The notes under the pieces were generated by a model that saw only the letters and a program-made list of their open reading frames with translations, made no database searches and was not told the origin of the DNA. Position numbers and translations under genes: made by a program. Of a stretch of DNA of 64,000 nt, positions 48,499 to 60,802 are shown piece by piece. Positions within the stretch are counted from its first letter, which is position 1; each line of letters begins with the position of its first letter. Origin of the DNA: a phage; the sequence record PZ445515.1; one strand, 5' to 3'.

Positions 48499-49383
48499 AT
48501 GTATAACTTTAAAGATAAACTAAGACAAAACGCTGGTAAAACAAAACCTAAGGAAAATAATAGTGTTCCTGATGCTAAAGTACTTCCATTTCCTGAACTA
48601 ACCCAGGAAGAAAAAGATAAACTAGCATTTATGTTCGATGCACTTATAGGATTAAGTGGACGACTGTACTCCACCCTTAGTATTAATGAGAAACGTCTAG
48701 TAGAGATGTTTTGTAAACGTTACCAAGTTACTTCAAAAGGCAACGCCCATAAAGAAGGTGAAAAAGCATTCACAGTCTTAAAAATCAGTGCATATGCACA
48801 TCGTTTCTTAGTTTATGGGTTACAGATGGAATACTTCACCATTCCACCATTTAAGTCATTTCACATCTTTGAAGATGAACGAATGAATATTGATGATCTC
48901 TATGGAGATACATACAAGTACTCAGGAAGTCCATTCCATGATGCATTAAGAAGCTATCCTACTAGTTATTTACCAGTTAGGGCATCACAGGGTAAAGCTA
49001 GCATCTTTGCGGTATACTCAGGATCTAAAGCATCGGATCTAGAAACTTATATATTTAAAGAGCGTAAATCTGTGCTTCCAGATGAAGCATTATATAATAA
49101 TCCATTGCTTCCAGAAAAAGAACCCGAGAAAATTGATGTAACCCCACCAACCCCATCTGATTCTCAATATTTAATCTACGAAAAACAAGTTAAGCTATCT
49201 CTAGAGATTGGTTTAGTCACACCGCTTGCTGCAGCATTCATCAATAGATACCTAGAAATTCCTAACGAGTTCCACACACGTTATAATACGAACATTCAGA
49301 TAACAGATGAACTAATTGCACTAGCAAAAGATACACCTACTGACACTGAGGCGTACCAAAAAGCATACCAAGAGTTACTGTAA
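48499..49383 (+). CDS. hypothetical protein
   Basis: 294 aa ORF; last early-region gene before repeat block. Confidence 0.6.
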   Translation: MYNFKDKLRQNAGKTKPKENNSVPDAKVLPFPELTQEEKDKLAFMFDALIGLSGRLYSTLSINEKRLVEMFCKRYQVTSKGNAHKEGEKAFTVLKISAYAHRFLVYGLQMEYFTIPPFKSFHIFEDERMNIDDLYGDTYKYSGSPFHDALRSYPTSYLPVRASQGKASIFAVYSGSKASDLETYIFKERKSVLPDEALYNNPLLPEKEPEKIDVTPPTPSDSQYLIYEKQVKLSLEIGLVTPLAAAFINRYLEIPNEFHTRYNTNIQITDELIALAKDTPTDTEAYQKAYQELL

Positions 49384-49919
49384 GATCCTGCATGTCTCGG
49401 TGCACAATACCTGTACCGAGACTCAAATACAAACTCTCGTTGACAGATAGCTAAATGTATGTTATCATAACTCTATGAGTTAATAGAATTAACCATTTAG
49501 AGTTGCCACACAGAAGGTGTGGTGGTTCAGTAATTTAAAATTACTAACTTGTAGCGGAGGATACGGAGCGACAGGACAAGTTAATAAGTAATTTAATATA
49601 AATTGCTAGAAACATCACGAGACCTTCTGGCGGGGGCAAAGCTCTATATGAGAACCCTGGGGGATCTTATATTTAAAATAAAAGTAAAACTTTTGACCAC
49701 ATAATTTACATTCAAGATGATACACCTGTTGCCGCTCATCTGCTAGGATGGCACAACACTTTCCTAGAAACTCCAGAGTTCTCACGAAATACTCACTCTT
49801 TCTAGGGCGGTTCTCCTAAGTTTCTAGGAACATATACTAGGCGGTTTAATACAGGGCGGTTATGGGGAGGGCGGTTATTTCTAGGAGACATTTTTTGAAA
49901 ACACATTTCCAGAAATTAC

Positions 49920-50520
49920 TGTCGGATTTGCACATTGTGTTTCTAGAAATTTATGGTCGGATTTGCACAATTGCCTAAGTTTTTAGGAACATATAATCTC
50001 TTGAAAATGGCAGCATTATTTCGGGCCGAAGGCCCATGATTGCCTGAGTTTTTAGAGCCACAGAAACTTTCACTTGTCAAGCTATTTTGCCCCATTTAGC
50101 TAATAAGATTTTACTTTATCTGCACTAATCTCAAATTAACCCAAATCTTCTCAACTCTTCCCCAAAATCCCCGCAAATCAGGTGCTACGCACCAAACATG
50201 CGCCCCTCTCGCAGTTCCCTCAAATTTTTCTCGATCTCTCAACTTCTCCCCAAACTCTTACAATCACACACTCTCCAATCGAAGTCACAAAAATCTTGTC
50301 GGATTCGCACAAATAAACCCATGTCGGATTTGCATATATTCTAGTTAATTCCACAGGATTGATGCGCAGCATCGGATTGCTGGAGTTTTTAGGAAAATTC
50401 ATTGTCGGATCCGCACATTATAAAAATTTTTCGGGTCGGATTTGCACACTACCAAAAATTGTCGGATTCGCACATACACGCCCACGCGTAATCCATGGGG
50501 GCAAATGTCGGATTTGCACA
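49920..50520. repeat. array of 8 direct copies of 15-bp motif TGTCGGATTTGCACA (injection-stop-signal-like repeats)
   Basis: Copies at 49920, 49955, 50297, 50322, 50403, 50434, 50460, 50506 with 1-2 substitutions; no ORF. Confidence 0.8.
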
Positions 50521-50559
50521 AAAGCGCAGGGCAATTGCCCTGCTTGCCTGAATACGAAT

Positions 50560-50750
50560 GATAATGAGAATCATTCTCATTTAAAAAGCGGAATGTGAAT
50601 GATAATAATTCGCATTTAAGAATGGAAGTGAGAATTATTCAGGAAGTGAAACGATTCTCATTTAAAAAGTGGAATGATTATTAGTTAGATAGTGAAATGC
50701 GAATGATACTGATTCGTATTTAAGAATGGAAGTGAGAAACACTATTATTT
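50560..50750. repeat. tandem approx. 90-bp repeat pair with palindromic cores
   Basis: Units alternate gagaatcattctcatttaaaaagYggaatg and gaatgata...ttcgYatttaagaatggaagtgagaa; extra copy near 51059. Confidence 0.7.
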
Positions 50751-50753
50751 AAG

Positions 50754-50846
50754 TTATCCACAGACTTATCAACAGCACGATTTGACTTGACAAAATCCTA
50801 GCCATTTTGAGGCGTTATCAACAGACTTATCAACAGCTTATCCTAC
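50754..50846. promoter_or_regulatory. DnaA-box cluster I
   Basis: Perfect TTATCCACA at 50754 plus TTATCAACA x3 and TTATCCTAC within 90 bp. Confidence 0.6.
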
Positions 50847-51414
50847 TGTATAAATATACAGTATTCCTATGCAGTGAATAATTCTAATATACAGCTAAAA
50901 CGCTCTCAAACGCATTCTAACGCGTTTAATTTTGTTGGGGATACTAAAACACGGGTAAAATTGGAGGAGGCTTAGAAATTAGTTAGCGAGCTAACGATCA
51001 CACAAGGCGACACGTAACACCCTAATCATTAGCAGGCTAACCATCGCGGGCGCGGTTAAATGAGAATCATTCTCATTTGAAAATTGGGGGCACTCCCTGA
51101 TAGTTGCGCCCCGTGATTATTAGTCTGGTAGTCGATGCGTGATTTTTTCCTCCTCCCCGTAGGAATCCACCAAATACTGATAATAACCATCGTGATCATA
51201 AATCACTTTATCATATTCGCCACGCTCGACCGCTTGCCGATTCTCCGGCGTATCTGGCACGTAAAAACATCAACCATTGTACTGATCTTGGTTACAACTA
51301 TTTTATTACTCATAATAACTCCCTAGTAAATATATTTTTGCCAATAGTGGCGAATGTTATCGCCACCAGCGGAATCATTAGCGGCCTTACTATTACCAAC
51401 GAAAATATATAATC

Positions 51415-51774
51415 TCATTGCGCCACCTTTCGAAACGCTGTTTCAATACTATCCGCAGTGGATTGAATATATGCGCCTTTCATTATCAGGCGCTCGGTAC
51501 ATACCTTGCGGAAAATATTAATAAAATCATCTTCATTTTCTGCAATTAATGCTTCACCCATAACCTGAACGTCACAAGATGCAAAGGTCAAAAATTGAAA
51601 CGCTAGTTCACGGGCAACGACCGCATTAATTTTATAATGTGCCTTGCCCTCATAAATATTAATAACGCCCTTATAAGCTGGGGAAAGCTGATTTAAATAG
51701 TTTGCTAATAATGCTGGGCGGCAATTAGCAACAAAACGATTGCCTTCATAAATTATCATTTGCATAGCTCCCAA
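51415..51774 (-). CDS. hypothetical pre-early-region protein
   Basis: 119 aa ORF, last gene of leftward operon. Confidence 0.55.
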   Translation of the reverse strand: MGAMQMIIYEGNRFVANCRPALLANYLNQLSPAYKGVINIYEGKAHYKINAVVARELAFQFLTFASCDVQVMGEALIAENEDDFINIFRKVCTERLIMKGAYIQSTADSIETAFRKVAQ

Positions 51775-51878
51775 ATAGTTCCGCCGATGATCATTAGCTG
51801 ACTAATAATTATCAGAATAAAACCAATTGAAGGCAGGACGCCCCAAAAACGAAAAGCCGTTTTAATTTGCTGAATCAT
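51759..51878 (-). CDS. hypothetical small membrane peptide
   Basis: 39 aa hydrophobic ORF overlapping neighbours. Confidence 0.3.
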
Positions 51879-52005
51879 TTGTTAGCCTCCCGATTAGATA
51901 GCCAGATAAAAGCATAAAGATCCCCAATGAAATGGGGTCATTTTTAAATAAGGTGGCGATAAAACCGCCAGCCATTGCAAGGATAATAACAATAACGCTT
52001 TTCAT
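51862..52005 (-). CDS. hypothetical small membrane peptide
   Basis: 47 aa hydrophobic ORF. Confidence 0.3.
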   Translation of the reverse strand: MKSVIVIILAMAGGFIATLFKNDPISLGIFMLLSGYLIGRLTNDSAN

Positions 52006-52214
52006 AGTACCCCACGAAACGCAGCGTAAAAGGTGGCAAAGTGTTTAACTGTTTCAGCTATCACGTTGCCGCGCTTATCAAATTTTTTCTCGGTAACACG
52101 AAAGGCATTTTTGTTACGTGCTACATATTCGATTTTACAATCTTCCCGCTCGAACGTGTTAACATCCACCAGCTTAAAGCCTTTCGAACGTGCAAGGGAA
52201 ACGTTGCGGATCAT
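52002..52214 (-). CDS. hypothetical protein
   Basis: 70 aa ORF with AGGAGA RBS. Confidence 0.5.
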   Translation of the reverse strand: MIRNVSLARSKGFKLVDVNTFEREDCKIEYVARNKNAFRVTEKKFDKRGNVIAETVKHFATFYAAFRGVL

Positions 52215-52216
52215 TT

Positions 52217-52366
52217 TTATTCTCCTTTACTAGTCATGCAGCCCAGCAGATAAGAAAACGCAGCAATGCCAGCGCCAATAATAACGGCGTGAACGCCAAA
52301 AGCTATTGCAAACAACGATAAAATAGCGCCCAAGATACCCGCCAGAATAGCTCGAAAAATAACCAT
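52217..52366 (-). CDS. hypothetical small membrane peptide
   Basis: 49 aa hydrophobic ORF with AGGAGA RBS. Confidence 0.35.
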   Translation of the reverse strand: MVIFRAILAGILGAILSLFAIAFGVHAVIIGAGIAAFSYLLGCMTSKGE

Positions 52367-52413
52367 TTTTTATTCTCCTAGTCAGTGGGGGATATAATAT
52401 CCCCCGTTACTAA

Positions 52414-52644
52414 TTACATTAAAACAATTTTTGCAGCTTGTTTTTTAGTACAGTGTTCCGCTTTCAGCGTGTCCAGCAAAAAGCCCGCCGTTTGCTGATC
52501 GATTTTATCGGCGTTGTATAGTTCTTGGATGGTGTTATAAGTTTTAGCAATGCCGAACTCCTGCACCATTTCATGAATAATGGCGCGGTTAGATACCCAG
52601 CCTTGAGCGGTGAACAGATGAGTAGCAGAAGAGTAAGCAACCAT
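52414..52644 (-). CDS. hypothetical protein
   Basis: 76 aa ORF. Confidence 0.5.
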   Translation of the reverse strand: MVAYSSATHLFTAQGWVSNRAIIHEMVQEFGIAKTYNTIQELYNADKIDQQTAGFLLDTLKAEHCTKKQAAKIVLM

Positions 52645-52747
52645 TTTAAGCCTCCAAATTTTTGGGAAATTTTTAATCCACCGTTTTGGTGTAAAGGCAT
52701 TATAACAAAAAAGCCACCATAAAAGGCGACCTTTACAAAACTTTACA

Positions 52748-53242
52748 TTAAACTACTTGTAAGGACTCAACATTGAAACATCGTTTCAATTCGTCATGCA
52801 AAACAGCGTATTCCTCCCATCGGGTATTATCAGGAATATAAACAAGCTGTTTTAATCGATTTGCGTATATTACCGCTTTGTTACCAACTATCTCGACGCC
52901 GCCATATTTAATAATTAATTTCATGACGGAATTAATAGGATCGCCGCCGTTTACATATGTGCCGGATTTACTTAGCTGATAATGATAAAGGCTTGCGTAT
53001 ACGTTTTCATTTTCATACCATTCGCCAGTATCCTCGTCTTCATAGCCATCGCTACCAAAACGAGAAGCATTATCAATAGCCATTTCATGAGCGAAAGCGT
53101 CCAGATCCGTACCAGCAGGAACAAAATATTCCTCGGTGTTCCCTTCCCCGCAATAGCCAGTATGGCAATCGACTAAAATGATCATATCGTGTTTAGCCGT
53201 GCTTACTTCCCCTAGCGAGAAGCCGTATTTTTCATCAGCCAT
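52748..53242 (-). CDS. hypothetical protein
   Basis: 164 aa ORF with RBS. Confidence 0.55.
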   Translation of the reverse strand: MADEKYGFSLGEVSTAKHDMIILVDCHTGYCGEGNTEEYFVPAGTDLDAFAHEMAIDNASRFGSDGYEDEDTGEWYENENVYASLYHYQLSKSGTYVNGGDPINSVMKLIIKYGGVEIVGNKAVIYANRLKQLVYIPDNTRWEEYAVLHDELKRCFNVESLQVV

Positions 53243-53307
53243 TAGTTAGCCTCCTATTAATTAACAAGGGAATAGTAAAGCGGGGTAACAATCCCCGCTA
53301 AATATTA

Positions 53308-54318
53308 TTACTCGCTTTCGGTGTTAGTGGTAAAAGTAGAAATATCGATACCTTTTACCATTTCATCAATCATTTCAGCGATGTTAAAACTTTGCACCAT
53401 TTCTAACATTGCCGCTTCCATAGCCGCCCCTGCTACCGCTTTCGCTTTCTGGTTAGTCGGTGCGTACTGGTCAACCGCTACACTCAGCAGGTTAGCAATC
53501 ACTACTCGACCAATAGGCGTATCGATATAACCTTTGATCATGAACGGTGCTTTTTTAGCCGCTACTTTCGTGATTTGAGTTAATGCAATCTTACCCGCTT
53601 CCAGTTTTGCAGCGTTTACAGCAGCGGATTTATTAGCGGCAACGATGTTAGCAATCTTGGTCATGGTATTTTTTCCTTTGTTTTCAGTAGTTTGAGTATT
53701 AACGTTTTGAGTGTTAGAATTTACAGCATGGTTTTCTACGCTGTCAATAATCTGATCTTCATCTTTCCAGAAAGAAAAACCAGCGCTTTCTATATCCCCA
53801 TCATAAATATATGGGTATAGCTCCCGTGGTAACAAAAAATTACCATCGCCATCAAAAGCCATTATAGCGGTATATTGAGATCCGTCGTTATCCGGCTTAT
53901 GCCATCCAGCAGGTAAATACTTCCAGATAACATCTAAAAATCCCTCAATGCTAGAAAGTCCATTTATCAGATCAAGCCCAATAAGCTCGAAACCATTTAT
54001 ATTAAATGATTGACGGCCTGAATTGCTATGATACGCAACAATATTATTGCCCTGCGCAATAATAAAATCGGCATCCGGCCCCGCTCCCCTGCCTGTAAAG
54101 ATATGGCAATCCCGATTATATAAAACAAGCGTTGCCCCTTGTTTATATAACGGCAAAAAACCATCCATATCATAAGCGTCATAATCATCAAAAAAGTTTT
54201 GATGAATAGTTTCAGCCTTGTTAATAAAATGTTTAATGCTGGTTGACTTGCTACCATCCAGCAGGTTGCGCAATGCACCTTTTAAAACGGTGGCATTATC
54301 AGGTTTATACAGCCTCAT
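53308..54318 (-). CDS. hypothetical protein
   Basis: 336 aa from ATG 54318 preceded by GAGGGAGG; first gene of leftward operon. Confidence 0.55.
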   Translation of the reverse strand: MRLYKPDNATVLKGALRNLLDGSKSTSIKHFINKAETIHQNFFDDYDAYDMDGFLPLYKQGATLVLYNRDCHIFTGRGAGPDADFIIAQGNNIVAYHSNSGRQSFNINGFELIGLDLINGLSSIEGFLDVIWKYLPAGWHKPDNDGSQYTAIMAFDGDGNFLLPRELYPYIYDGDIESAGFSFWKDEDQIIDSVENHAVNSNTQNVNTQTTENKGKNTMTKIANIVAANKSAAVNAAKLEAGKIALTQITKVAAKKAPFMIKGYIDTPIGRVVIANLLSVAVDQYAPTNQKAKAVAGAAMEAAMLEMVQSFNIAEMIDEMVKGIDISTFTTNTESE

Positions 54319-54600
54319 TTGTTCGGCCTCCCTCGTTAATCGGTGAGTGAATGATATAGATATTTGTTCACTAGGGGCAAGAAAAAAGAAAATGTTTTTT
54401 ATTCCTTGCCTAGCGCCTAGTTTTATGCTAACCGCGCAGCGGTGCAATAAAGAGCAAAACACGGCGAAGCCACCAGGGCGACGGGTGAAGGCTTTACTTT
54501 AATATTACCCCACCGCATTTAGTTCGTTAGAAAGCGTTTTAGGCCGCTTGAAATTGATTGCAGTTGTTAACACTACCTTTTTACCCTGTATATTTATACA

Positions 54601-55020
54601 GTAGGATAACCTGTGGATAAGTCTGTGTAAAAGTCCTTATATCGCCGCCTATCGTGTCAAATTATTTTGTGCTGTGGAAAACATTGTGGATAACTTAAAT
54701 GATAGTGGTTCTCACTTAGACCGATGATTTCTTATAGTTATTATTTCTCATTAATTTATATGTATATTATATATCATGAAATAGTTAGTTAGCTAATGAG
54801 ATTTTCCGTGATTAATAGTCTGCTAATAATTTAAGCCGTTACAATCCACCAGCATGATTATCATCCTAGCAATTATTAGCCTGCTATCTTTCTGATGCAT
54901 ACTAACAAATAAAAGTCAATTAATTTATTTTATAAAATAAGTAGTTATCCACTGGAAAATAAAAGTCAAGTGGATAACTAGGAAAATTTCATTTTTGCTT
55001 TTGGGGATAAGTTATCAACA
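54601..55020. promoter_or_regulatory. DnaA-box cluster II in divergent intergenic region
   Basis: TGTGGATAA at 54612 and 54685, TTATCCAC 54945, GTGGATAAC 54970, TTATCAACA 55012; very AT-rich. Confidence 0.55.
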
Positions 55021-55423
55021 AGGCTAGAATGCGTCTAAAACGCCCTAGAACGCGATGAAGTTTTTAGCCATCCCATCATAAGGGGGCACGCCGTTTATCG
55101 CTGCCACGAGCTTTTTAGATTTTGTCAAGTAGGGCAAAGCAAATATAAATGAAAAAATTACTTGCCTATTTGCTTTATTTTGTGGTATTCGCGCGCCCGT
55201 TTCTTTTAATTTTAGGCCGTCGCCGCACGCCATTCGGTGGATCATGTCTTTACGTTTCTTTACAAAAATAAGGTTGCGCCATTTTTGGTATTTGCTATTA
55301 TTTATCTCGTAGGGCGGCAATGACGAACTACACGGCGGGAAGTTTACCGCCACGCTCTTTAAAAATTGGGTATATCTTAAAGCCTATCGGCGGTAAACTT
55401 ATCTATTATAAGGAATCGACGAT

Positions 55424-55627
55424 ATGAAACAAACTTTATTGATCACTGGTAAACCTAGCAAGGCACTGGATAGCGAAACTAAAAAATTGTTGACAGTAGC
55501 GCAAAGATCGGTAAAATACCGATTCACGCAGTACAAGAAAGGCCGCCAGCAAGGTTTAGAAATGATCTGGCGAAACATTATGATTGACTTGAAAGAAAAT
55601 CATAAAAAACTGCAAAAAATTGTTTGA
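55424..55627 (+). CDS. hypothetical protein
   Basis: 67 aa ORF. Confidence 0.45.
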   Translation: MKQTLLITGKPSKALDSETKKLLTVAQRSVKYRFTQYKKGRQQGLEMIWRNIMIDLKENHKKLQKIV

Positions 55628-55853
55628 CAACCTAGCCGATAGGTTTTAAGATGTACCCAGTTCGATAAGAGCGATAACTTGATAAAATTTGACGGTCGGT
55701 GCTTACCATAATGCGCCCCGCCCCCTAACGGGATATAGCGGCCTACATGGAGTTCTTTAAATTGATTAAACTGGCGAGCGGATTGTTACTTATTACCTGC
55801 TACCTTCTAGCAGGTAATGCGGAACAATCCCCTAAATAACTGGAGTTTATATT

Positions 55854-56105
55854 ATGCAAAACGTTATTACCGCGCCTAAAATTGGTCAATCCGTCTTTAT
55901 TCCTTTCGTTACTAAAACGGATGAATTAACCGGAAAAGCCGAACGTATTAAAGGTGCGGCGCTTATGCCGTTCGATACAATCGACGCGGTATATGCTGAA
56001 AATGAACGCAGTAACAACGGCAAGCCGATTTATAACGTTCGCGTTAAATCCGGCGACGCTGTAAAAGTTATCCAGCGTAACGAAAAATGGGAAGCGGTGG
56101 CATAA
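55854..56105 (+). CDS. hypothetical protein
   Basis: 83 aa ORF with RBS. Confidence 0.5.
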   Translation: MQNVITAPKIGQSVFIPFVTKTDELTGKAERIKGAALMPFDTIDAVYAENERSNNGKPIYNVRVKSGDAVKVIQRNEKWEAVA

Positions 56106-56377
56106 AAATAACCTTCTTTAACTGGTATAAGCACCGCCACAGGTGAACATATCAAGCTACCGTGGCAATTGTGAGCGGCAAATAAAGCGGCTTAAATAGC
56201 GGCTAATATATTCTAAATAGAATAGCTTTAAAGTGTTAACCGAATATACTTGAACTTGCGCGGCGGGTAGTTATTTCTAGAATAACTGAACTCAAGACAA
56301 TATTAGTTGAAAGTATATTCTGATTAACATTTAGTTAATCATTAAATCCCTTAAATTAAACAAATAGGAGTTACATC

Positions 56378-56785
56378 ATGACTAACGCAAAAACCGCAAA
56401 ATTCGCATGGAATGAAGAAAACACTCAGAAAGCTGTTACCATGTACCAGCAGTTAATCAACGAAAACGGTTTAGATTTTGCAAATAGCGACGGCCTGAAA
56501 GAGATTGCAAAAGCAGTAGGCGCGGCCTCCCCCGTATCCGTTCGGTCAAAATTGACCAGTGCAAAAGCCTATCAAAAAAGCGATAAGCCGCGTAAAGTTG
56601 GCGGCGGTAGCTCTGTGCGTAAAGCTCACTATGTGCGAGTAATTGCAAAACACGCTATCGATTCCGGTATTATCAAAGACGCCGATGATCTGGCAAGCCT
56701 TGAAAGTGCTAAACTGGAAACGCTGGACGCGGTGGCGCAACTGTTAGGCGTTGCCGATGAAGTAAAACAAGCCGCAGGCGAATAA
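56378..56785 (+). CDS. hypothetical protein
   Basis: 135 aa ORF with RBS AGGAG. Confidence 0.55.
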   Translation: MTNAKTAKFAWNEENTQKAVTMYQQLINENGLDFANSDGLKEIAKAVGAASPVSVRSKLTSAKAYQKSDKPRKVGGGSSVRKAHYVRVIAKHAIDSGIIKDADDLASLESAKLETLDAVAQLLGVADEVKQAAGE

Positions 56786-56875
56786 TAGTTATACCTTGCC
56801 CCCTCACTAGAAGGGGGCAATAATATAACTGTTTAGCGATAGTTATTTTCTTCCCTTAAATCAGGAGTTTTAAAA

Positions 56876-57073
56876 ATGGTTTTCTTTCCTACTGAATCTT
56901 TAATTCTAGGCTTATTTATTATGGCGGCCTCGTTATTGTTCGCTTATTTTCAAAATGATTTAGATTCGTATTATTTTAAACGTAAATCTAAATTAGCAAA
57001 GCGTTTAGGTCTGATTTGTTTTATTGCCGCCGTTGCTTGTGGTGTTAGTTCTAGCCTAGTGCCTTTAAATTAA
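56876..57073 (+). CDS. hypothetical small membrane protein
   Basis: 65 aa, two TM segments. Confidence 0.45.
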   Translation: MVFFPTESLILGLFIMAASLLFAYFQNDLDSYYFKRKSKLAKRLGLICFIAAVACGVSSSLVPLN

Positions 57074-57163: not shown

Positions 57164-58834
57164 ATGATTATTTCCGCAGAAAAACAAACCGTTATCCTGA
57201 AAATGGCCGCTGACTTTAATTTCTATGGTAAACGTCTGCGCGCTACTAAACTGGAAGTCTGCGACGATATATCAAAAGCGGTCTACGATACAACGAAACA
57301 TTCAACCGCTATCTGCGACTGGCTGGAAGCAAATAAACCAGTTAAACCAAAAGCGGCAAAAGTAGCAAAAGCCATTAAAAACGATGAGCGCCCCGAAGCG
57401 GCGGGGATTGTTTCTAGTACCGTGGAACAGTGGGAAGTAAAACAAGGTAAACGCTTTATTATTACGTCGATTCAGAATAATACTTTCCCGCATAAAAACT
57501 TTTTAGCATCACTGGAGCAATTTGCTAAATATATCGGTGCTGATTTGCTTGTTTCTAAGTATATTTATAATAAAAACGGATTCCAAAATGGAGAAGGTGC
57601 GGATGGAATCAAATATGATTCCGCTTTTGATAAATATATTTGCAGCAAAAACGTGTTTTTAAATAACCGCCGTTTTGCTTTCATGGCTGAAATTAATGTT
57701 TTGCCAACCGCAGATTATCCGCTTTCAGGATTCGCAGAAACTGCAACCGCGCTCAATATTGAGGGGCTTGCGATTGGTCACGCTAAAATTACCGCTGAAA
57801 GTGTGCCAGCTTTAAAAGGTGAAGTAGTGCGCCGCATGTATTCAACCGGAACGGCAACCCTCAAAAACTACATTCAGCAGAAAGCAGGACAAAAAGCGGA
57901 AGCACTGCATAACTTCGGCGCGCTGATTGTTGAGTTCGACGAGGACGGGGAATTTTTTGTACGCCAGCTTGAAACAATGGACGAAAGCGGGGTGTTTTAT
58001 GATCTGAACGTTTGCGCTACTCCTGCCGGATGCTATGAAACATCGGGGCATGTTTTAGGCTTGCAATATGGCGATATTCATGCGGAAAAATTAGATGAGG
58101 AGTGCGCCGCCGCATCTTGGGGGCATGGCGATACTTATGGGCTTGTGGATATTCTTAAACCAAAATATCAGTTTGTACATGACGTGCATGATTTTACATC
58201 CCGCAACCATCATAACCGCGCATCCGGTGTATTCCTAGCAAAACAGTACGCCGCAGGACGTGATAAAGTTCTGGATGATCTTATCGACACGGGGCGCGTG
58301 CTGGAATCAATGGAACGCGATTTTAGTCAAACGATTATCGTAGAATCTAACCATGATCTAGCGTTATCCCGTTGGCTTGATGATCGTAATGCTAACATCA
58401 AGGACGATCCCGCGAACGCGGAACTATATCACCGCCTGAATGCTGCAATTTACGCGGCAATCGGTGAACACGACGAAACGTTCAACGTGCTAGATTATGC
58501 CTTGCGTAACGTCGCAGGTTGCGAGTTTAACGCCATTTTCCTGACCACTGACCAATCTTTCAAGATTGCAGGCATTGAATGCGGCGTACACGGTCACAAC
58601 GGCATTAACGGGAGCCGTGGCAATCCTAAACAATTTAAGAAATTGGGCAAGTTAAACACGGGGCATACGCATACCGCCAGTATTTACGGCGGCGTATACA
58701 CCGCTGGCGTAGCGGGTAGTCTGGATATGGGTTACAACGTTGGCGCGTCAAGCTGGACGCAAACGCATTTAATTACCTATGCAAACGGCCAGCGCACTTT
58801 GATTGACTTTAAGAATGGTAAATTCTTTGCGTAA
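57164..58834 (+). CDS. A1: pre-early protein A1-like (metallophosphatase-fold, host takeover)
   Basis: 556 aa, same length as T5 A1; GDIH, GHGD, SNHD, GHTH metallophosphatase-like motifs; followed by A2- and dmp-like genes. Confidence 0.7.
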   Translation: MIISAEKQTVILKMAADFNFYGKRLRATKLEVCDDISKAVYDTTKHSTAICDWLEANKPVKPKAAKVAKAIKNDERPEAAGIVSSTVEQWEVKQGKRFIITSIQNNTFPHKNFLASLEQFAKYIGADLLVSKYIYNKNGFQNGEGADGIKYDSAFDKYICSKNVFLNNRRFAFMAEINVLPTADYPLSGFAETATALNIEGLAIGHAKITAESVPALKGEVVRRMYSTGTATLKNYIQQKAGQKAEALHNFGALIVEFDEDGEFFVRQLETMDESGVFYDLNVCATPAGCYETSGHVLGLQYGDIHAEKLDEECAAASWGHGDTYGLVDILKPKYQFVHDVHDFTSRNHHNRASGVFLAKQYAAGRDKVLDDLIDTGRVLESMERDFSQTIIVESNHDLALSRWLDDRNANIKDDPANAELYHRLNAAIYAAIGEHDETFNVLDYALRNVAGCEFNAIFLTTDQSFKIAGIECGVHGHNGINGSRGNPKQFKKLGKLNTGHTHTASIYGGVYTAGVAGSLDMGYNVGASSWTQTHLITYANGQRTLIDFKNGKFFA

Positions 58835-59657: not shown

Positions 59658-60392
59658 ATGAATAAAGCTATTATGAATATTTCCCGCAGCTTCCCGCATA
59701 TTTCCCGCGTCATGATTTGGGATTTAGACGGCACTATCGTTAATTCTTTCCATCGTGTAGCGCCTTGCTTTGATAATGAGGGCAATTTAGATTTAAATAA
59801 GTATAAGAATGAAGCGTGTAAACATCATTTAATAATGCAGGATACTTTATTACCATTGGTTGAATACATGCGCCAGTGCATGAATGACGCAAATACTTTA
59901 AACATTATTTGCACCGCTCGACTAATGAGCAAGTCGGACTATTATTATTTGCGCAAACAAGGCTTGCGCGGTCGTGGTAATAGTAATATCCGCGTGTTTT
60001 CCCGTGATACACTGCATAAATATTTTGAGGCTGATAAAGTTAGCGAAATATACCACAGCAAGGACGCAGTATATAAATCTTATTATTTTGAATTATTTAA
60101 ACAACTATATCCGAACGCTGATTTTACAATGATTGATGATCATAAAGGCGTGCTATCGGCGGCGGCATCATACGGATTTAAAACGCTGGACGCGCAAGCC
60201 GTTAACGATATTCTATCAATCGGCGTGGCATTAATAGGTGAAACCTTTATTGATGAATCCCTCGATGATGATAATGATTATCAATTCCTAGCTGACCGTT
60301 TGAAATTATGTTGGGAAGGTATGACCGAGGAAGAACGCGCAGAATATAGTTGCAGCCCGCAACAATATATTGAGAAATTAAAAGTTGCGTAA
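59658..60392 (+). CDS. dmp: 5'-deoxyribonucleotidase (HAD family)
   Basis: 244 aa; HAD motif I IWDLDGT and later DD motif; position next to A1/A2. Confidence 0.65.
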   Translation: MNKAIMNISRSFPHISRVMIWDLDGTIVNSFHRVAPCFDNEGNLDLNKYKNEACKHHLIMQDTLLPLVEYMRQCMNDANTLNIICTARLMSKSDYYYLRKQGLRGRGNSNIRVFSRDTLHKYFEADKVSEIYHSKDAVYKSYYFELFKQLYPNADFTMIDDHKGVLSAAASYGFKTLDAQAVNDILSIGVALIGETFIDESLDDDNDYQFLADRLKLCWEGMTEEERAEYSCSPQQYIEKLKVA

Positions 60393-60446: not shown

Positions 60447-60556
60447 AGTTACCCTGCTAATAGTAACGGGGGTGGCGGTTAGCAGACTAAGTATTCTCCC
60501 CCAACCCACTGGACACACCTCCATGTGTAATCTTATGAAATTTGGCAAAAGTCAAA

Positions 60557-60802
60557 TTAGCGCATAGAATGGTCATCAAACCTGTGTTCTGGTCTGAACT
60601 CACGGAATCTCTTCCGCGACGCCCGAGATCCGTCCGACCACTCCCGCTCAAACTCCGCACGTTTCTCGTCAAACTTCCGCTCCCTTTCCGCAATCTCCCG
60701 CGATACTTCCGCAATATATTTACGATGCTTGTTGATTGCCGCAGTTGTCCCGAAAACTCCCGCAAGTATCCCGATAATAAAAGCAATTACAATACTAAAC
60801 AT
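60557..60802 (-). CDS. hypothetical membrane-anchored protein
   Basis: 81 aa, N-terminal TM then charged tail. Confidence 0.5.
   Translation of the reverse strand: MFSIVIAFIIGILAGVFGTTAAINKHRKYIAEVSREIAERERKFDEKRAEFEREWSDGSRASRKRFREFRPEHRFDDHSMR

What the first reader, a model, noticed from the sequence alone, without database searches (positions are those of the whole stretch)
50754..55020. Two DnaA-box clusters flanking the leftward pre-early operon
Cluster I (50754-50846) has a perfect TTATCCACA plus several TTATCAACA variants in direct orientation. Cluster II (54601-55020) has TGTGGATAA twice, TTATCCAC, GTGGATAAC and TTATCAACA in an AT-rich 400-bp region between divergent operons. Multiple consensus DnaA boxes in a lytic phage suggest recruitment or titration of host DnaA, an origin-like element, or DnaA-dependent control of pre-early promoters or injection arrest.
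Basis: partly seen in the sequence, partly recalled or inferred. Interest (0 to 1): 0.6.

Follow-up and report, generated by a model that had tools for sequence, protein, structure and literature searches.

The report
T5 injection-stop DnaA-box inverted repeat
The two DnaA-box clusters are real, but they are the two arms of an already published inverted repeat in the first DNA that phage T5 injects, which is proposed but never shown to bind host DnaA and pause injection.

Summary
The window is a T5-like phage, 100% identical to Escherichia phage T5_ev212. The finding lies in the first-step-transfer (pre-early) part of the terminal repeat.

DnaA boxes are not enriched across the window, but they are strongly clustered locally.

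These are Davison's IRD'spacerIRC' (at the injection stop signal) and IRCspacerIRD. Each arm carries two tandem box pairs in 12-bp register, 61 bp apart.

This was published in 1987, 2015 and 2020, together with the idea that DnaA arrests injection. Papers from 2023 and 2026 say it is still untested.

The right part of Cluster II (54945-55020) is a separate, lineage-specific element.

New here:
- The box core survives in Klebsiella, Pectobacterium, Providencia, Proteus and Vibrio T5-like phages.
- Each arm ends in a near-consensus LexA-type palindrome (CTGT-N8-ACAG) that is conserved as well as the boxes.
- The segment between the arms is inverted in Klebsiella-type relatives.
- Chi sites cluster there in one orientation.

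An origin role or promoter control is poorly supported. Verdict: real, functional-looking, already known.

The parts
50730..50861 (+). Arm I of the 132-nt inverted repeat. [quoted passage not shown]
   Evidence: I1. Present in all 41 related loci, 89-97% identical in close relatives. Matches Davison's description.
50731..50743 (+). Conserved imperfect palindrome AGTGAGAAACACT at the outer end of arm I.
   Evidence: Also present in the Proteus phage; a GAGTGAGAAGCAT variant occurs in the Vibrio phage.
50754..50774 (+). Arm I box pair 1-2: TTATCCACA (perfect consensus), gac, TTATCAACA (off consensus at position 6). Starts are 12 bp apart.
   Evidence: Box 1 fits the strict consensus in 25 of 31 relatives, box 2 in 0 of 31, where it is TTATYAACA in 28, TTATTAACC in 1 and TTATACAAAA in 2.
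50815..50835 (+). Arm I box pair 3-4: TTATCAACA, gac, TTATCAACA. It starts 61 bp after pair 1-2, which leaves a 52-bp spacer.
   Evidence: Box 4 is TTATCCACA in 18 of 31 relatives. This pair is the core conserved across genera.
50838..50846 (+). Fifth half-box, TTATCCTAC. It overlaps the left half of the palindrome.
   Evidence: TTATCCTAC or TTATTCTAC in nearly all arms.
50844..50863 (.). LexA-operator-like palindrome TACTGTATAAATATACAGTA at the inner end of arm I.
   Evidence: One mismatch to TACTGTATATATATACAGTA, with 0.01 matches expected by chance. CTGT-N8-ACAG is kept in 29 of 31 arm I copies and in the Klebsiella, Pectobacterium, Providencia, Proteus and Vibrio relatives.
54586..54717 (-). 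Arm II of the inverted repeat. It is the homologue of T5 IRCspacerIRD in Repeat Region 2, upstream of the - strand operon.
   Evidence: I1. Present in all 41 loci. Davison.
54584..54603 (.). LexA-like palindrome of arm II. The core CTGTATATTTATACAG is at 54586-54601.
   Evidence: The core is intact in 26 of 31 arm II copies.
54612..54632 (-). Arm II box pair 4-3: TTATCCACA (54612-54620) and TTTTACACA (54624-54632). Both fit the strict consensus.
   Evidence: Arm II box 3 is TTTTACACA, TTATCCACA or TTTTGCACA in 29 of 31 relatives, so it varies only at the degenerate consensus positions.
54673..54693 (-). Arm II box pair 2-1: TTTTCCACA (54673-54681) and TTATCCACA (54685-54693). Both fit the strict consensus.
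54945..55020 (.). Separate, lineage-specific element: inverted GTTATCCACT...AGTGGATAAC, then TTATCCCCA (-) and TTATCAACA (+). None of these fits the strict consensus.
   Evidence: Present in about 12 of 31 close relatives and partly in four more distant ones. T5 and many others carry an unrelated allele at this position.
51056..54321 (-). Pre-early operon enclosed by the arms. It includes the homologue of the Ung-dependent nickase T5.015 at 52002-52214.
   Evidence: Gene content is variable: the distance between arms is 1577-4058 nt. The segment is inverted in L039-L041.
49915..50730 (.). Non-coding repeat field on the un-injected side of arm I. It holds 7 or more copies of TGTCGGATTTGCACA and AATGAGAATCATTCTCATT-type palindromes. 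The estimated first-step-transfer shear point and the terminal-repeat boundary both fall here.
   Evidence: D1-D5. Davison's Repeat Region 3. The terminal-repeat boundary is inferred by homology to the LTR annotation of phage MM-1.
56378..56785 (+). Gene A2, a DNA-binding protein needed for second-step transfer. It is the likely trans-acting partner and is listed as context.
   Evidence: (phrog_1725, DNA binding protein).
57164..58834 (+). Gene A1, essential for second-step transfer and host DNA degradation. Listed as context.

Best explanation
The two clusters are two copies, in inverted orientation, of a conserved non-coding module of about 130 bp. T5-like phages carry it in the first DNA they inject.

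Arm I sits next to the injection stop signal, near the inner end of the terminal repeat. Arm II sits between the divergent pre-early operons.

Each module is an ordered array of sites that match host proteins:
- two tandem pairs of DnaA boxes, all in one orientation;
- box starts 12 bp apart within a pair, and pairs 61 bp apart;
- a further half-box;
- a LexA-type CTGT-N8-ACAG palindrome.

In arm I the outer boxes are mostly strong consensus boxes and the inner ones weak. In arm II most boxes fit the consensus.

The most likely function is a loading pad for host DnaA that is already in the cell, and probably also for LexA. The resulting protein-DNA complex would hold or mark the phage DNA at the point where transfer pauses, until phage proteins A1 and A2 let transfer resume.

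Shown here: the sequence, the architecture, the position and the family-wide conservation.

Inferred: that DnaA binds (my estimate about 0.65), that LexA binds (about 0.5), and that this binding causes or stabilises the injection pause (about 0.3).
For: - **Identity.** The region is 100% identical to Escherichia phage T5_ev212 and lies in the left-terminal-repeat region of T5-like phages. The 132-nt inverted repeat, the 12-bp box register and the 52-bp spacer match the published description exactly.
- **Clustering.** The local clustering of boxes is far beyond simulation.
- **Close relatives.** All 41 related loci (31 distinct) carry both arms.
- **Substitution pattern.** Changes respect the DnaA consensus where it matters. 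Arm II box 3 switches among TTTTACACA, TTATCCACA and TTTTGCACA in 29 of 31 relatives.
- **Cross-genus conservation.** In the cross-genus alignment, 22 of 30 invariant columns fall in boxes 3 and 4 and in CTGT..ACAG. Within box 3 the invariant positions are 1, 2, 4, 7, 8 and 9.
- **Distant phages.** In Providencia, Proteus and Vibrio phages (A1 is 43-46% identical in the Providencia and Proteus loci), every exact TTATCCACA in 12-22 kb lies in the module or on the opposite strand 3-6 kb away, where an inverted partner would lie.
- **Spacers.** Spacer sequence within a pair varies, but spacer length is kept at 3 bp in close relatives and 2-4 bp in distant ones.
- **Timing.** Transfer stops without phage protein synthesis, so any stop factor must already be present in the cell or the virion. 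Complete ejection occurs in vitro with FhuA alone (Davison).
- **A second stop.** A minor first-step-transfer band near 5.8 kb was reported close to arm II.
- **Not borrowed DNA.** The arm has no homologue in E. coli genomes or plasmids.
Against: - No DnaA or LexA binding experiment exists for this DNA.
- In arm I, boxes 2 and 3 are held at TTATYAACA, which is outside the TTWTNCACA consensus at position 6.
- A viable T5 mutant deleted from hegG to gene 017 should lack arm II, because hegG lies on the far side of that arm. So the pair of arms is not essential. This is an inference; the deletion endpoints are not given.
- Physical objection (my inference): a protein bound to DNA that is already inside the cell would be expected to favour further entry, not block it, unless the complex is anchored at the entry channel.
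- Metagenomic viruses with distant A1 homologues show no such clusters, although their hosts are unknown and many contigs are short.
Confidence: 0.4

Rival explanations
1. The repeats are binding sites for a phage protein: the DNA-binding protein A2, or an A1-A2 complex, which release the paused DNA. On this reading the likeness to host DnaA and LexA sites is incidental, or reflects competition with those host proteins.
For: - A2 is a DNA-binding protein that is essential for second-step transfer, and its target is unknown.
- Conservation extends beyond the 9-mers: the flanking G..G, the half-box and the AGTGAGAAnCACT element are also conserved.
- Arm I holds non-consensus TTATYAACA boxes under apparent selection.
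Against: - The stop itself happens before any phage protein is made.
- An exact match to two unrelated host consensus sites, kept from Escherichia phages to Vibrio phages, is hard to explain as coincidence.
- In relatives, box variation tracks the degenerate positions of the DnaA consensus.
Confidence: 0.15
2. The modules are transcription boundaries. DnaA and LexA bound at both ends of the enclosed operon would block read-through from the strong pre-early promoters, for instance into the stop region. Alternatively they would repress a promoter that overlaps the palindrome.
For: - Arm I lies just downstream of the last gene of the - strand operon, and arm II lies upstream of its promoter-like site.
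- A promoter-like match (TTAACA, 16 nt, TATATT at 54567-54594) has its -10 element inside the arm II palindrome.
- DnaA-box complexes are known to block transcribing RNA polymerase (established knowledge, from memory).
Against: - The boxes are more than 200 bp from the best promoter-like sites of either operon.
- The arm I palindrome has no comparable promoter-like match (sequence read).
- The enclosed segment is inverted in Klebsiella-type relatives while the arms keep their orientation. Arm function is therefore not tied to operon direction.
- Terminator-like hairpins already exist nearby.
Confidence: 0.15
3. The module is part of an origin-like element at the inner edge of the terminal repeat. 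Tandem DnaA boxes next to a field of about 20-bp direct repeats resemble iteron plasmid origins. Such an element could prime replication or the duplication of the terminal repeat.
For: - Tandem DnaA boxes adjoin 7 or more copies of TGTCGGATTTGCACA, and AT-rich patches are present.
- The module lies about 0.7 kb from the terminal-repeat boundary.
Against: - There are no 13-mer unwinding repeats anywhere in the window.
- T5 origins were mapped near the genome centre, and the replication genes are not expressed during the first-step stage (Davison).
- Arm II has no adjacent iteron field.
Confidence: 0.08
4. The arms are only a relic duplication or a recombination substrate. They would matter solely because they let the enclosed gene cassette invert or be exchanged, and the box matches would have no binding role.
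For: - Gene content between the arms is highly variable.
- The segment is inverted in L039-L041.
Against: - The arms are only about 77% identical to each other, yet each is 89-97% conserved between phages. Each is therefore under its own constraint and is not simply homogenised.
- Conservation is concentrated on the box and palindrome columns rather than spread evenly.
Confidence: 0.04

Closest known systems
T5 first-step-transfer inverted repeats IRD'spacerIRC' and IRCspacerIRD with DnaA boxes (Heusterspreute et al. 1987, cited in Davison; Davison 2020, bioRxiv 10.1101/866236)
   Same: It is the same element. It has the same genome position, a 131-132-nt inverted repeat, eight boxes in four pairs with 3-bp gaps, and a 52-bp spacer.
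   Different: Only allelic detail differs. This phage keeps four strict-consensus boxes in arm II, where T5 has lost one. Arm I box 4 is TTATCAACA here, TTATCCCCA in T5 and TTATCCACA in most relatives.
E. coli oriC arrays of DnaA boxes (strong R1/R4 boxes nucleating weak sites in helical register)
   Same: Boxes are tandem, in one orientation, and about one helical turn apart. In arm I the strong boxes are on the outside and the weak ones on the inside.
   Different: - There are no 13-mer unwinding repeats.
- Box gaps are 3 bp rather than 2 bp.
- There is no conserved IHF site.
- There is no evidence of initiation here.
datA and DARS DnaA-regulatory loci of E. coli (box clusters that titrate or recycle DnaA)
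   Same: It is a non-origin cluster of high-affinity DnaA boxes.
   Different: - The only IHF consensus match (50828-50840) exists because this phage has TTATCAACA at box 4. It is not conserved.
- Titrating DnaA would serve little purpose in a host whose DNA is being degraded (inference).
Iteron-type plasmid and phage origins with tandem DnaA boxes (for example P1 oriR, pSC101), recalled from established knowledge
   Same: Tandem DnaA boxes lie beside a field of short direct repeats.
   Different: No Rep-like initiator has been identified, no replication evidence exists, and arm II lacks iterons.
LexA SOS operators (consensus TACTG(TA)5CAGTA)
   Same: Arm I matches 19 of 20 positions. The CTGT and ACAG half-sites are almost invariant and the centre is A/T-rich but variable, which is the conservation profile of a LexA operator.
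   Different: The palindrome is not clearly placed over a promoter. No binding data exist, and no paper found in the searchable library reports it for T5.

Membership tests
T5-type IRD'spacerIRC' / IRCspacerIRD module | Lies in the first-step-transfer part of the terminal repeat of a T5-like phage, with one copy next to the non-coding repeat field that holds the injection stop signal. | tested here: met
T5-type IRD'spacerIRC' / IRCspacerIRD module | Two copies of about 131 nt in inverted orientation. | tested here: met
   I1: 132 nt, 77% complementary, 3724 nt between the arms.
T5-type IRD'spacerIRC' / IRCspacerIRD module | Eight DnaA or DnaA-like boxes in pairs separated by 3 bp, with a 52-bp spacer between the pairs. 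| tested here: met
   starts are 12 bp apart within pairs and 61 bp apart between pairs, in both arms.
Functional DnaA binding sites | Match to the 9-bp consensus TT(A/T)TNCACA. | tested here: met
   Five of the eight arm boxes fit: one in arm I and four in arm II. The other three are TTATCAACA.
Functional DnaA binding sites | Evolutionary conservation of the consensus positions beyond that of the flanking sequence. | tested here: met
Functional DnaA binding sites | Demonstrated binding of DnaA in vitro or in vivo. | not testable with these tools
   Papers from 2023 and 2026 state that no experimental study exists.
Injection stop signal (cis-acting) | Removing or mutating the site abolishes the stop at about 8% of the genome. 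| not testable with these tools
   Only positional evidence is available: arm I lies about 150 bp inside the estimated shear point. Arm II is probably dispensable for plaque formation (inference).
Replication origin (oriC-like) | An AT-rich unwinding element with 13-mer repeats next to the DnaA boxes. | tested here: not met
   GATCTNTTNTTTT gives 0 matches at up to 1 mismatch in the whole window.
Replication origin (oriC-like) | Replication initiates at the site. | not testable with these tools
   Published mapping places T5 origins near the genome centre.
datA/DARS-like DnaA regulatory locus | A conserved IHF site within the box cluster. | tested here: not met
   There is one match, at 50828-50840. 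The consensus is not enriched in the window, and the match is lost where box 4 is TTATCCACA, as in most relatives.
LexA operator | CTGT-N8-ACAG with an A/T-rich centre, close to TACTG(TA)5CAGTA. | tested here: met
   One mismatch in arm I and three in arm II, with 0.01 matches expected. Conserved across genera.
LexA operator | Overlaps a promoter that it represses. | tested here: inconclusive
   There is a 10-of-12 promoter-like match over the arm II palindrome only. Arm I has no counterpart.
LexA operator | Demonstrated LexA binding. | not testable with these tools
   No data found.

The most novel reading that the evidence does not exclude
The module is not a DnaA site alone. It is a composite landing pad for at least two host DNA-binding proteins that are already present in the cell, DnaA and LexA. 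It is conserved across T5-like phages of Escherichia, Salmonella, Klebsiella, Pectobacterium, Providencia, Proteus and Vibrio.

On this reading the LexA-type operator is a required part of the device that halts or holds the first-injected DNA. I did not find this operator described in the searchable literature.

Chi sites in a single orientation lie in the enclosed segment, and the segment can be inverted. Together these would make the inner part of the terminal repeat a dedicated host-factor control region for staged genome entry.
Probability: 0.2. Interest if true: 0.7.

Novelty: already known. Interest (0 to 1): 0.3.

Why it matters
How T5 stops injecting after 8% of its genome, and then restarts, has been an open question for about sixty years. 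This element is the leading sequence candidate for the stop.

The comparative work here gives sharper targets for experiments:
- The minimal conserved core is box 3, box 4, the half-box and a LexA-type palindrome. It survives from Escherichia phages to Vibrio phages.
- Arm I and arm II have different box strengths.
- Arm II is probably dispensable.

These points say which bases to mutate. They also add a second host protein, LexA, to test alongside DnaA.

Tried and rejected
- **IHF sites.** The consensus WATCAANNNNTTR is not enriched (7 matches against 6.05 expected). The one match in arm I is not conserved.
- **Fur boxes.** One good non-coding match lies at 50560-50578. The other matches fall inside the dmp coding sequence and probably reflect an acidic peptide. 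I kept this only as a side note.
- **Unwinding 13-mers.** None in the window.
- **Known RNA families.** No Rfam match in 49000-57000.
- **Host or plasmid origin of the arm.** No match in E. coli genomes or in plasmids.
- **TTGACA in the 52-bp spacer as a promoter.** The only -10-like hexamer is 13 nt away in arm II and absent from arm I. The motif is also missing in the Proteus and Providencia phages.
- **A long hairpin or cruciform as the reason for the palindrome.** In distant phages only the CTGT and ACAG ends stay symmetric. That fits a dimeric protein site better.
- **Concerted evolution of the arms.** Rejected, because the two arms are about 77% alike while each is 89-97% alike between phages.
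- **Davison's 2015 review.** It could not be fetched.

Full report
**What the window is**

The region 50400-55400 is 100% identical to Escherichia phage T5_ev212, and 90-97% identical to many Tequintavirus genomes. The window's + strand is the reverse of the standard T5 map.

Annotation of the related phage MM-1 places the region inside the left terminal repeat. That is the DNA T5 injects first, the 'first-step transfer' (FST) DNA.
- The + strand genes at 56378-56785 and 57164-58834 are A2 and A1.
- The - strand ORFs between 51056 and 54321 form the second pre-early operon, which includes the homologue of the Ung-dependent nickase T5.015.
- Near 60.5-60.7 kb the left genome terminus is joined to the right end of the unique region. 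The terminal repeat is therefore collapsed in this assembly.

**Checking the observation**

Across the whole window the strict consensus TT(A/T)TNCACA is not over-represented. There are 11 matches, against 5.7-8.0 in simulations. The local clustering is a different matter.
- Four strict boxes fall within 82 bp, where simulations gave at most 2-3 per 150 bp.
- Nine boxes fall within 4.3 kb, where simulations gave at most 5.
- All four TTATCAACA in the 64 kb are in the finding.
- The boxes are not independent events, because they are copies of one repeated unit (D18 and I1).

Cluster I (50730-50861) and the left part of Cluster II (54586-54717) are the two arms of a 132-nt inverted repeat. The arms are 77% complementary and 3724 nt apart.

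Read in the same orientation, each arm has this order:
- AGTGAGAAnCACT, then ATTTAAG;
- box 1, 3 bp, box 2;
- a 52-bp spacer;
- box 3, 3 bp, box 4;
- 2 bp, then the half-box TTATCCTAC, which overlaps a palindrome CTGT-N8-ACAG.

Box starts are 12 bp apart within a pair and 61 bp apart between pairs, in both arms.

The right part of Cluster II (54945-55020) is a different element. It occurs in about 12 of 31 close relatives and partly in four more distant ones. T5 itself has an unrelated allele there, and none of its four boxes fits the strict consensus.

**Already published**

Davison's 2020 preprint describes exactly this structure.
- It names IRD'spacerIRC' (Repeat Region 3, at the injection stop signal) and IRCspacerIRD (Repeat Region 2).
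- It reports eight DnaA or DnaA-like boxes in pairs 3 bp apart, and a constant 52-bp spacer.
- It notes that the first boxes were reported in 1987.
- It proposes that membrane-bound DnaA holds the boxes and stops injection.
- It argues against an origin role.

A 2023 paper on phage BF23 and a 2026 PNAS paper both repeat that the boxes exist and that their role has not been tested.

**Comparative evidence gathered here**

Loci anchored on A2 gave 41 T5-like loci, 31 of them distinct. All carry both arms.

| Box | Arm I: fits strict consensus | Arm II: fits strict consensus |
|---|---|---|
| 1 | 25 of 31 | 27 of 31 |
| 2 | 0 of 31 (TTATYAACA in 28 of 31) | 17 of 31 |
| 3 | 6 of 31 | 29 of 31 |
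| 4 | 18 of 31 | 27 of 31 |

- Arm I therefore has strong outer boxes and weak inner ones, while arm II is mostly strong throughout.
- Arm II box 3 switches among TTTTACACA, TTATCCACA and TTTTGCACA. It changes only at the two degenerate positions of the consensus.
- Within-pair spacer sequence varies, but its length does not.
- The two arms of one genome are about 77% alike, whereas the same arm in different phages is 89-97% alike. Each arm is thus under its own constraint.

Loci anchored on A1 reached much more distant relatives.
- Providencia phages PSTCR5 and PR1 and Proteus phages Stubb and PM135 have A1 only 43-46% identical. A Vibrio Pogseptimavirus was also examined. All keep the core: box 3, 2-4 bp, box 4, about 9-11 nt, CTGT-N8-ACAG.
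- In these loci every exact TTATCCACA in 12-22 kb lies in the module, or on the opposite strand 3-6 kb away, where an inverted partner would lie.
- In a nine-sequence cross-genus alignment, 22 of 30 invariant columns lie in boxes 3 and 4 and in CTGT/ACAG. Within box 3 the invariant positions are 1, 2, 4, 7, 8 and 9.
- The arm is found in 542 phage records, at two or four places each. It is absent from E. coli genomes and from plasmids.
- Metagenomic viruses with distant A1 homologues showed no such clusters. Their hosts are unknown and many contigs are short.

**The palindrome**

- Arm I carries TACTGTATAAATATACAGTA. This is one mismatch from the LexA operator consensus TACTG(TA)5CAGTA (established knowledge), with 0.01 matches expected by chance.
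- Only three CTGT-N8-ACAG exist in the window, and two of them are in the arms.
- CTGT and ACAG are almost invariant across all phages. The centre varies but stays A/T-rich, and beyond the four outer bases symmetry is lost in distant phages. That profile fits a dimeric LexA-type site and not a long hairpin.
- Davison's text does not mention LexA or SOS, and no paper in the searchable library links T5 to a LexA box. Older subscription papers could not be checked.

**Bearing on function**

The stop occurs without phage protein synthesis, while complete ejection occurs in vitro with the receptor alone. A host factor already present in the cell is therefore a reasonable candidate for the stop.

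Arm I lies about 150 bp inside the estimated shear point, and a minor FST band was reported near arm II.

Evidence against a strict need for both arms:
- A viable T5 mutant deleted from hegG to gene 017 makes small plaques.
- In T5, hegG lies on the A2 side of arm II, so a contiguous deletion should remove arm II. This is an inference, because the deletion endpoints are not in the text.

Evidence against promoter control:
- The boxes are more than 200 bp from the best promoter-like sites.
- In Klebsiella-type relatives (L039-L041) the homologues of the two largest enclosed genes lie between the arms on the opposite strand and in reversed order. The enclosed segment has been inverted while the arms kept their orientation.

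Evidence against an origin:
- There are no 13-mer unwinding repeats.
- The published origin mapping places T5 origins elsewhere.

One physical caveat is my own inference. Protein bound to DNA already inside the cell should favour entry rather than block it, unless the complex is fixed at the entry channel.

**Verdict**

It is the known DnaA-box inverted repeat of the T5 first-step-transfer region, and the injection-arrest idea is already published and untested.

My estimates:
- about 0.65 that DnaA binds;
- about 0.5 that LexA binds;
- about 0.3 that this binding causes or stabilises the pause.

**Side observations**

- All three Chi sites of the window lie at 51363, 52166 and 54846 on the - strand.
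- In 34 related loci Chi occurs almost only in this segment and on this strand.
- That orientation is active for RecBCD moving from the stop-signal side toward the left end of the genome (established knowledge of Chi polarity).
- A Fur-box-like palindrome lies at 50560-50578.

Noticed in passing
window 50844-50863 and 54584-54603: Each inverted-repeat arm ends in a near-consensus LexA-type palindrome (TACTGTATAAATATACAGTA; core CTGT-N8-ACAG). It is conserved as well as the DnaA boxes, out to Providencia, Proteus and Vibrio T5-like phages. It is not mentioned in Davison's 2020 text or in any T5 paper found in the searchable library.
   Followed up: yes
window 51363-51370, 52166-52173, 54846-54853 (- strand): The only three Chi sites (GCTGGTGG) in the 64 kb lie in or just beyond the segment between the arms, all on one strand. 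In 34 related loci Chi is almost confined to this segment and strand. That orientation is active for RecBCD travelling from the stop-signal side, or from the right genome terminus in the right-repeat copy, toward the left end.
   Followed up: partly
L039-L041 (Klebsiella IME260/Sugarland-type phages), between their arms, compared with window 52748-54321: Homologues (35-37% identity) of the two largest enclosed genes lie between the arms on the opposite strand and in reversed order. The enclosed pre-early segment has therefore been inverted across the inverted repeat during evolution. Gene content between the arms also varies widely (1.6-4.1 kb).
   Followed up: partly
window 50560-50578 (and related copies at 50598, 50644, 50702, 51059): The palindromic repeats AATGAGAATCATTCTCATT resemble the Fur box: GATAATGAGAATCATTCTC has 2 mismatches to GATAATGATAATCATTATC. 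They lie where the first-step-transfer shear point is estimated. T5 uses the Fur-regulated receptor FhuA. The other Fur-like matches, at 60264-60288, are inside the dmp coding sequence and are probably coincidental.
   Followed up: partly
window 49915-50520: Seven or more irregularly spaced copies of TGTCGGATTTGCACA (the published DRD repeats) fill the non-coding DNA between arm I and the terminal-repeat boundary. Their binding partner is unknown.
   Followed up: no
window 54945-55020: There are two alternative alleles at this position among close relatives. The window type has inverted GTTATCCACT...AGTGGATAAC plus GGGGATAAGTTATCAACA. The type found in T5 itself has a different inverted repeat and no DnaA-like boxes. 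Distant phages keep part of the window type, so it may be the ancestral form.
   Followed up: partly
window about 60500-60700: The left genome terminus is joined directly to the right end of the unique region (receptor-binding and terminase genes). The window therefore comes from an assembly in which the terminal repeat is collapsed or the genome is circularly permuted.
   Followed up: partly
A1 homologues from the protein search, for example P0071, P0075, P0078, P0107: Some distant A1 homologues of about 530 aa cover only about 87% of A1 and carry helix-turn-helix Pfam domains (PF13384, PF13936, PF04218, PF02796). This hints that a sequence-specific DNA-binding function is fused to A1 in other viruses, whereas in T5 it may be supplied by A2.
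   Followed up: no
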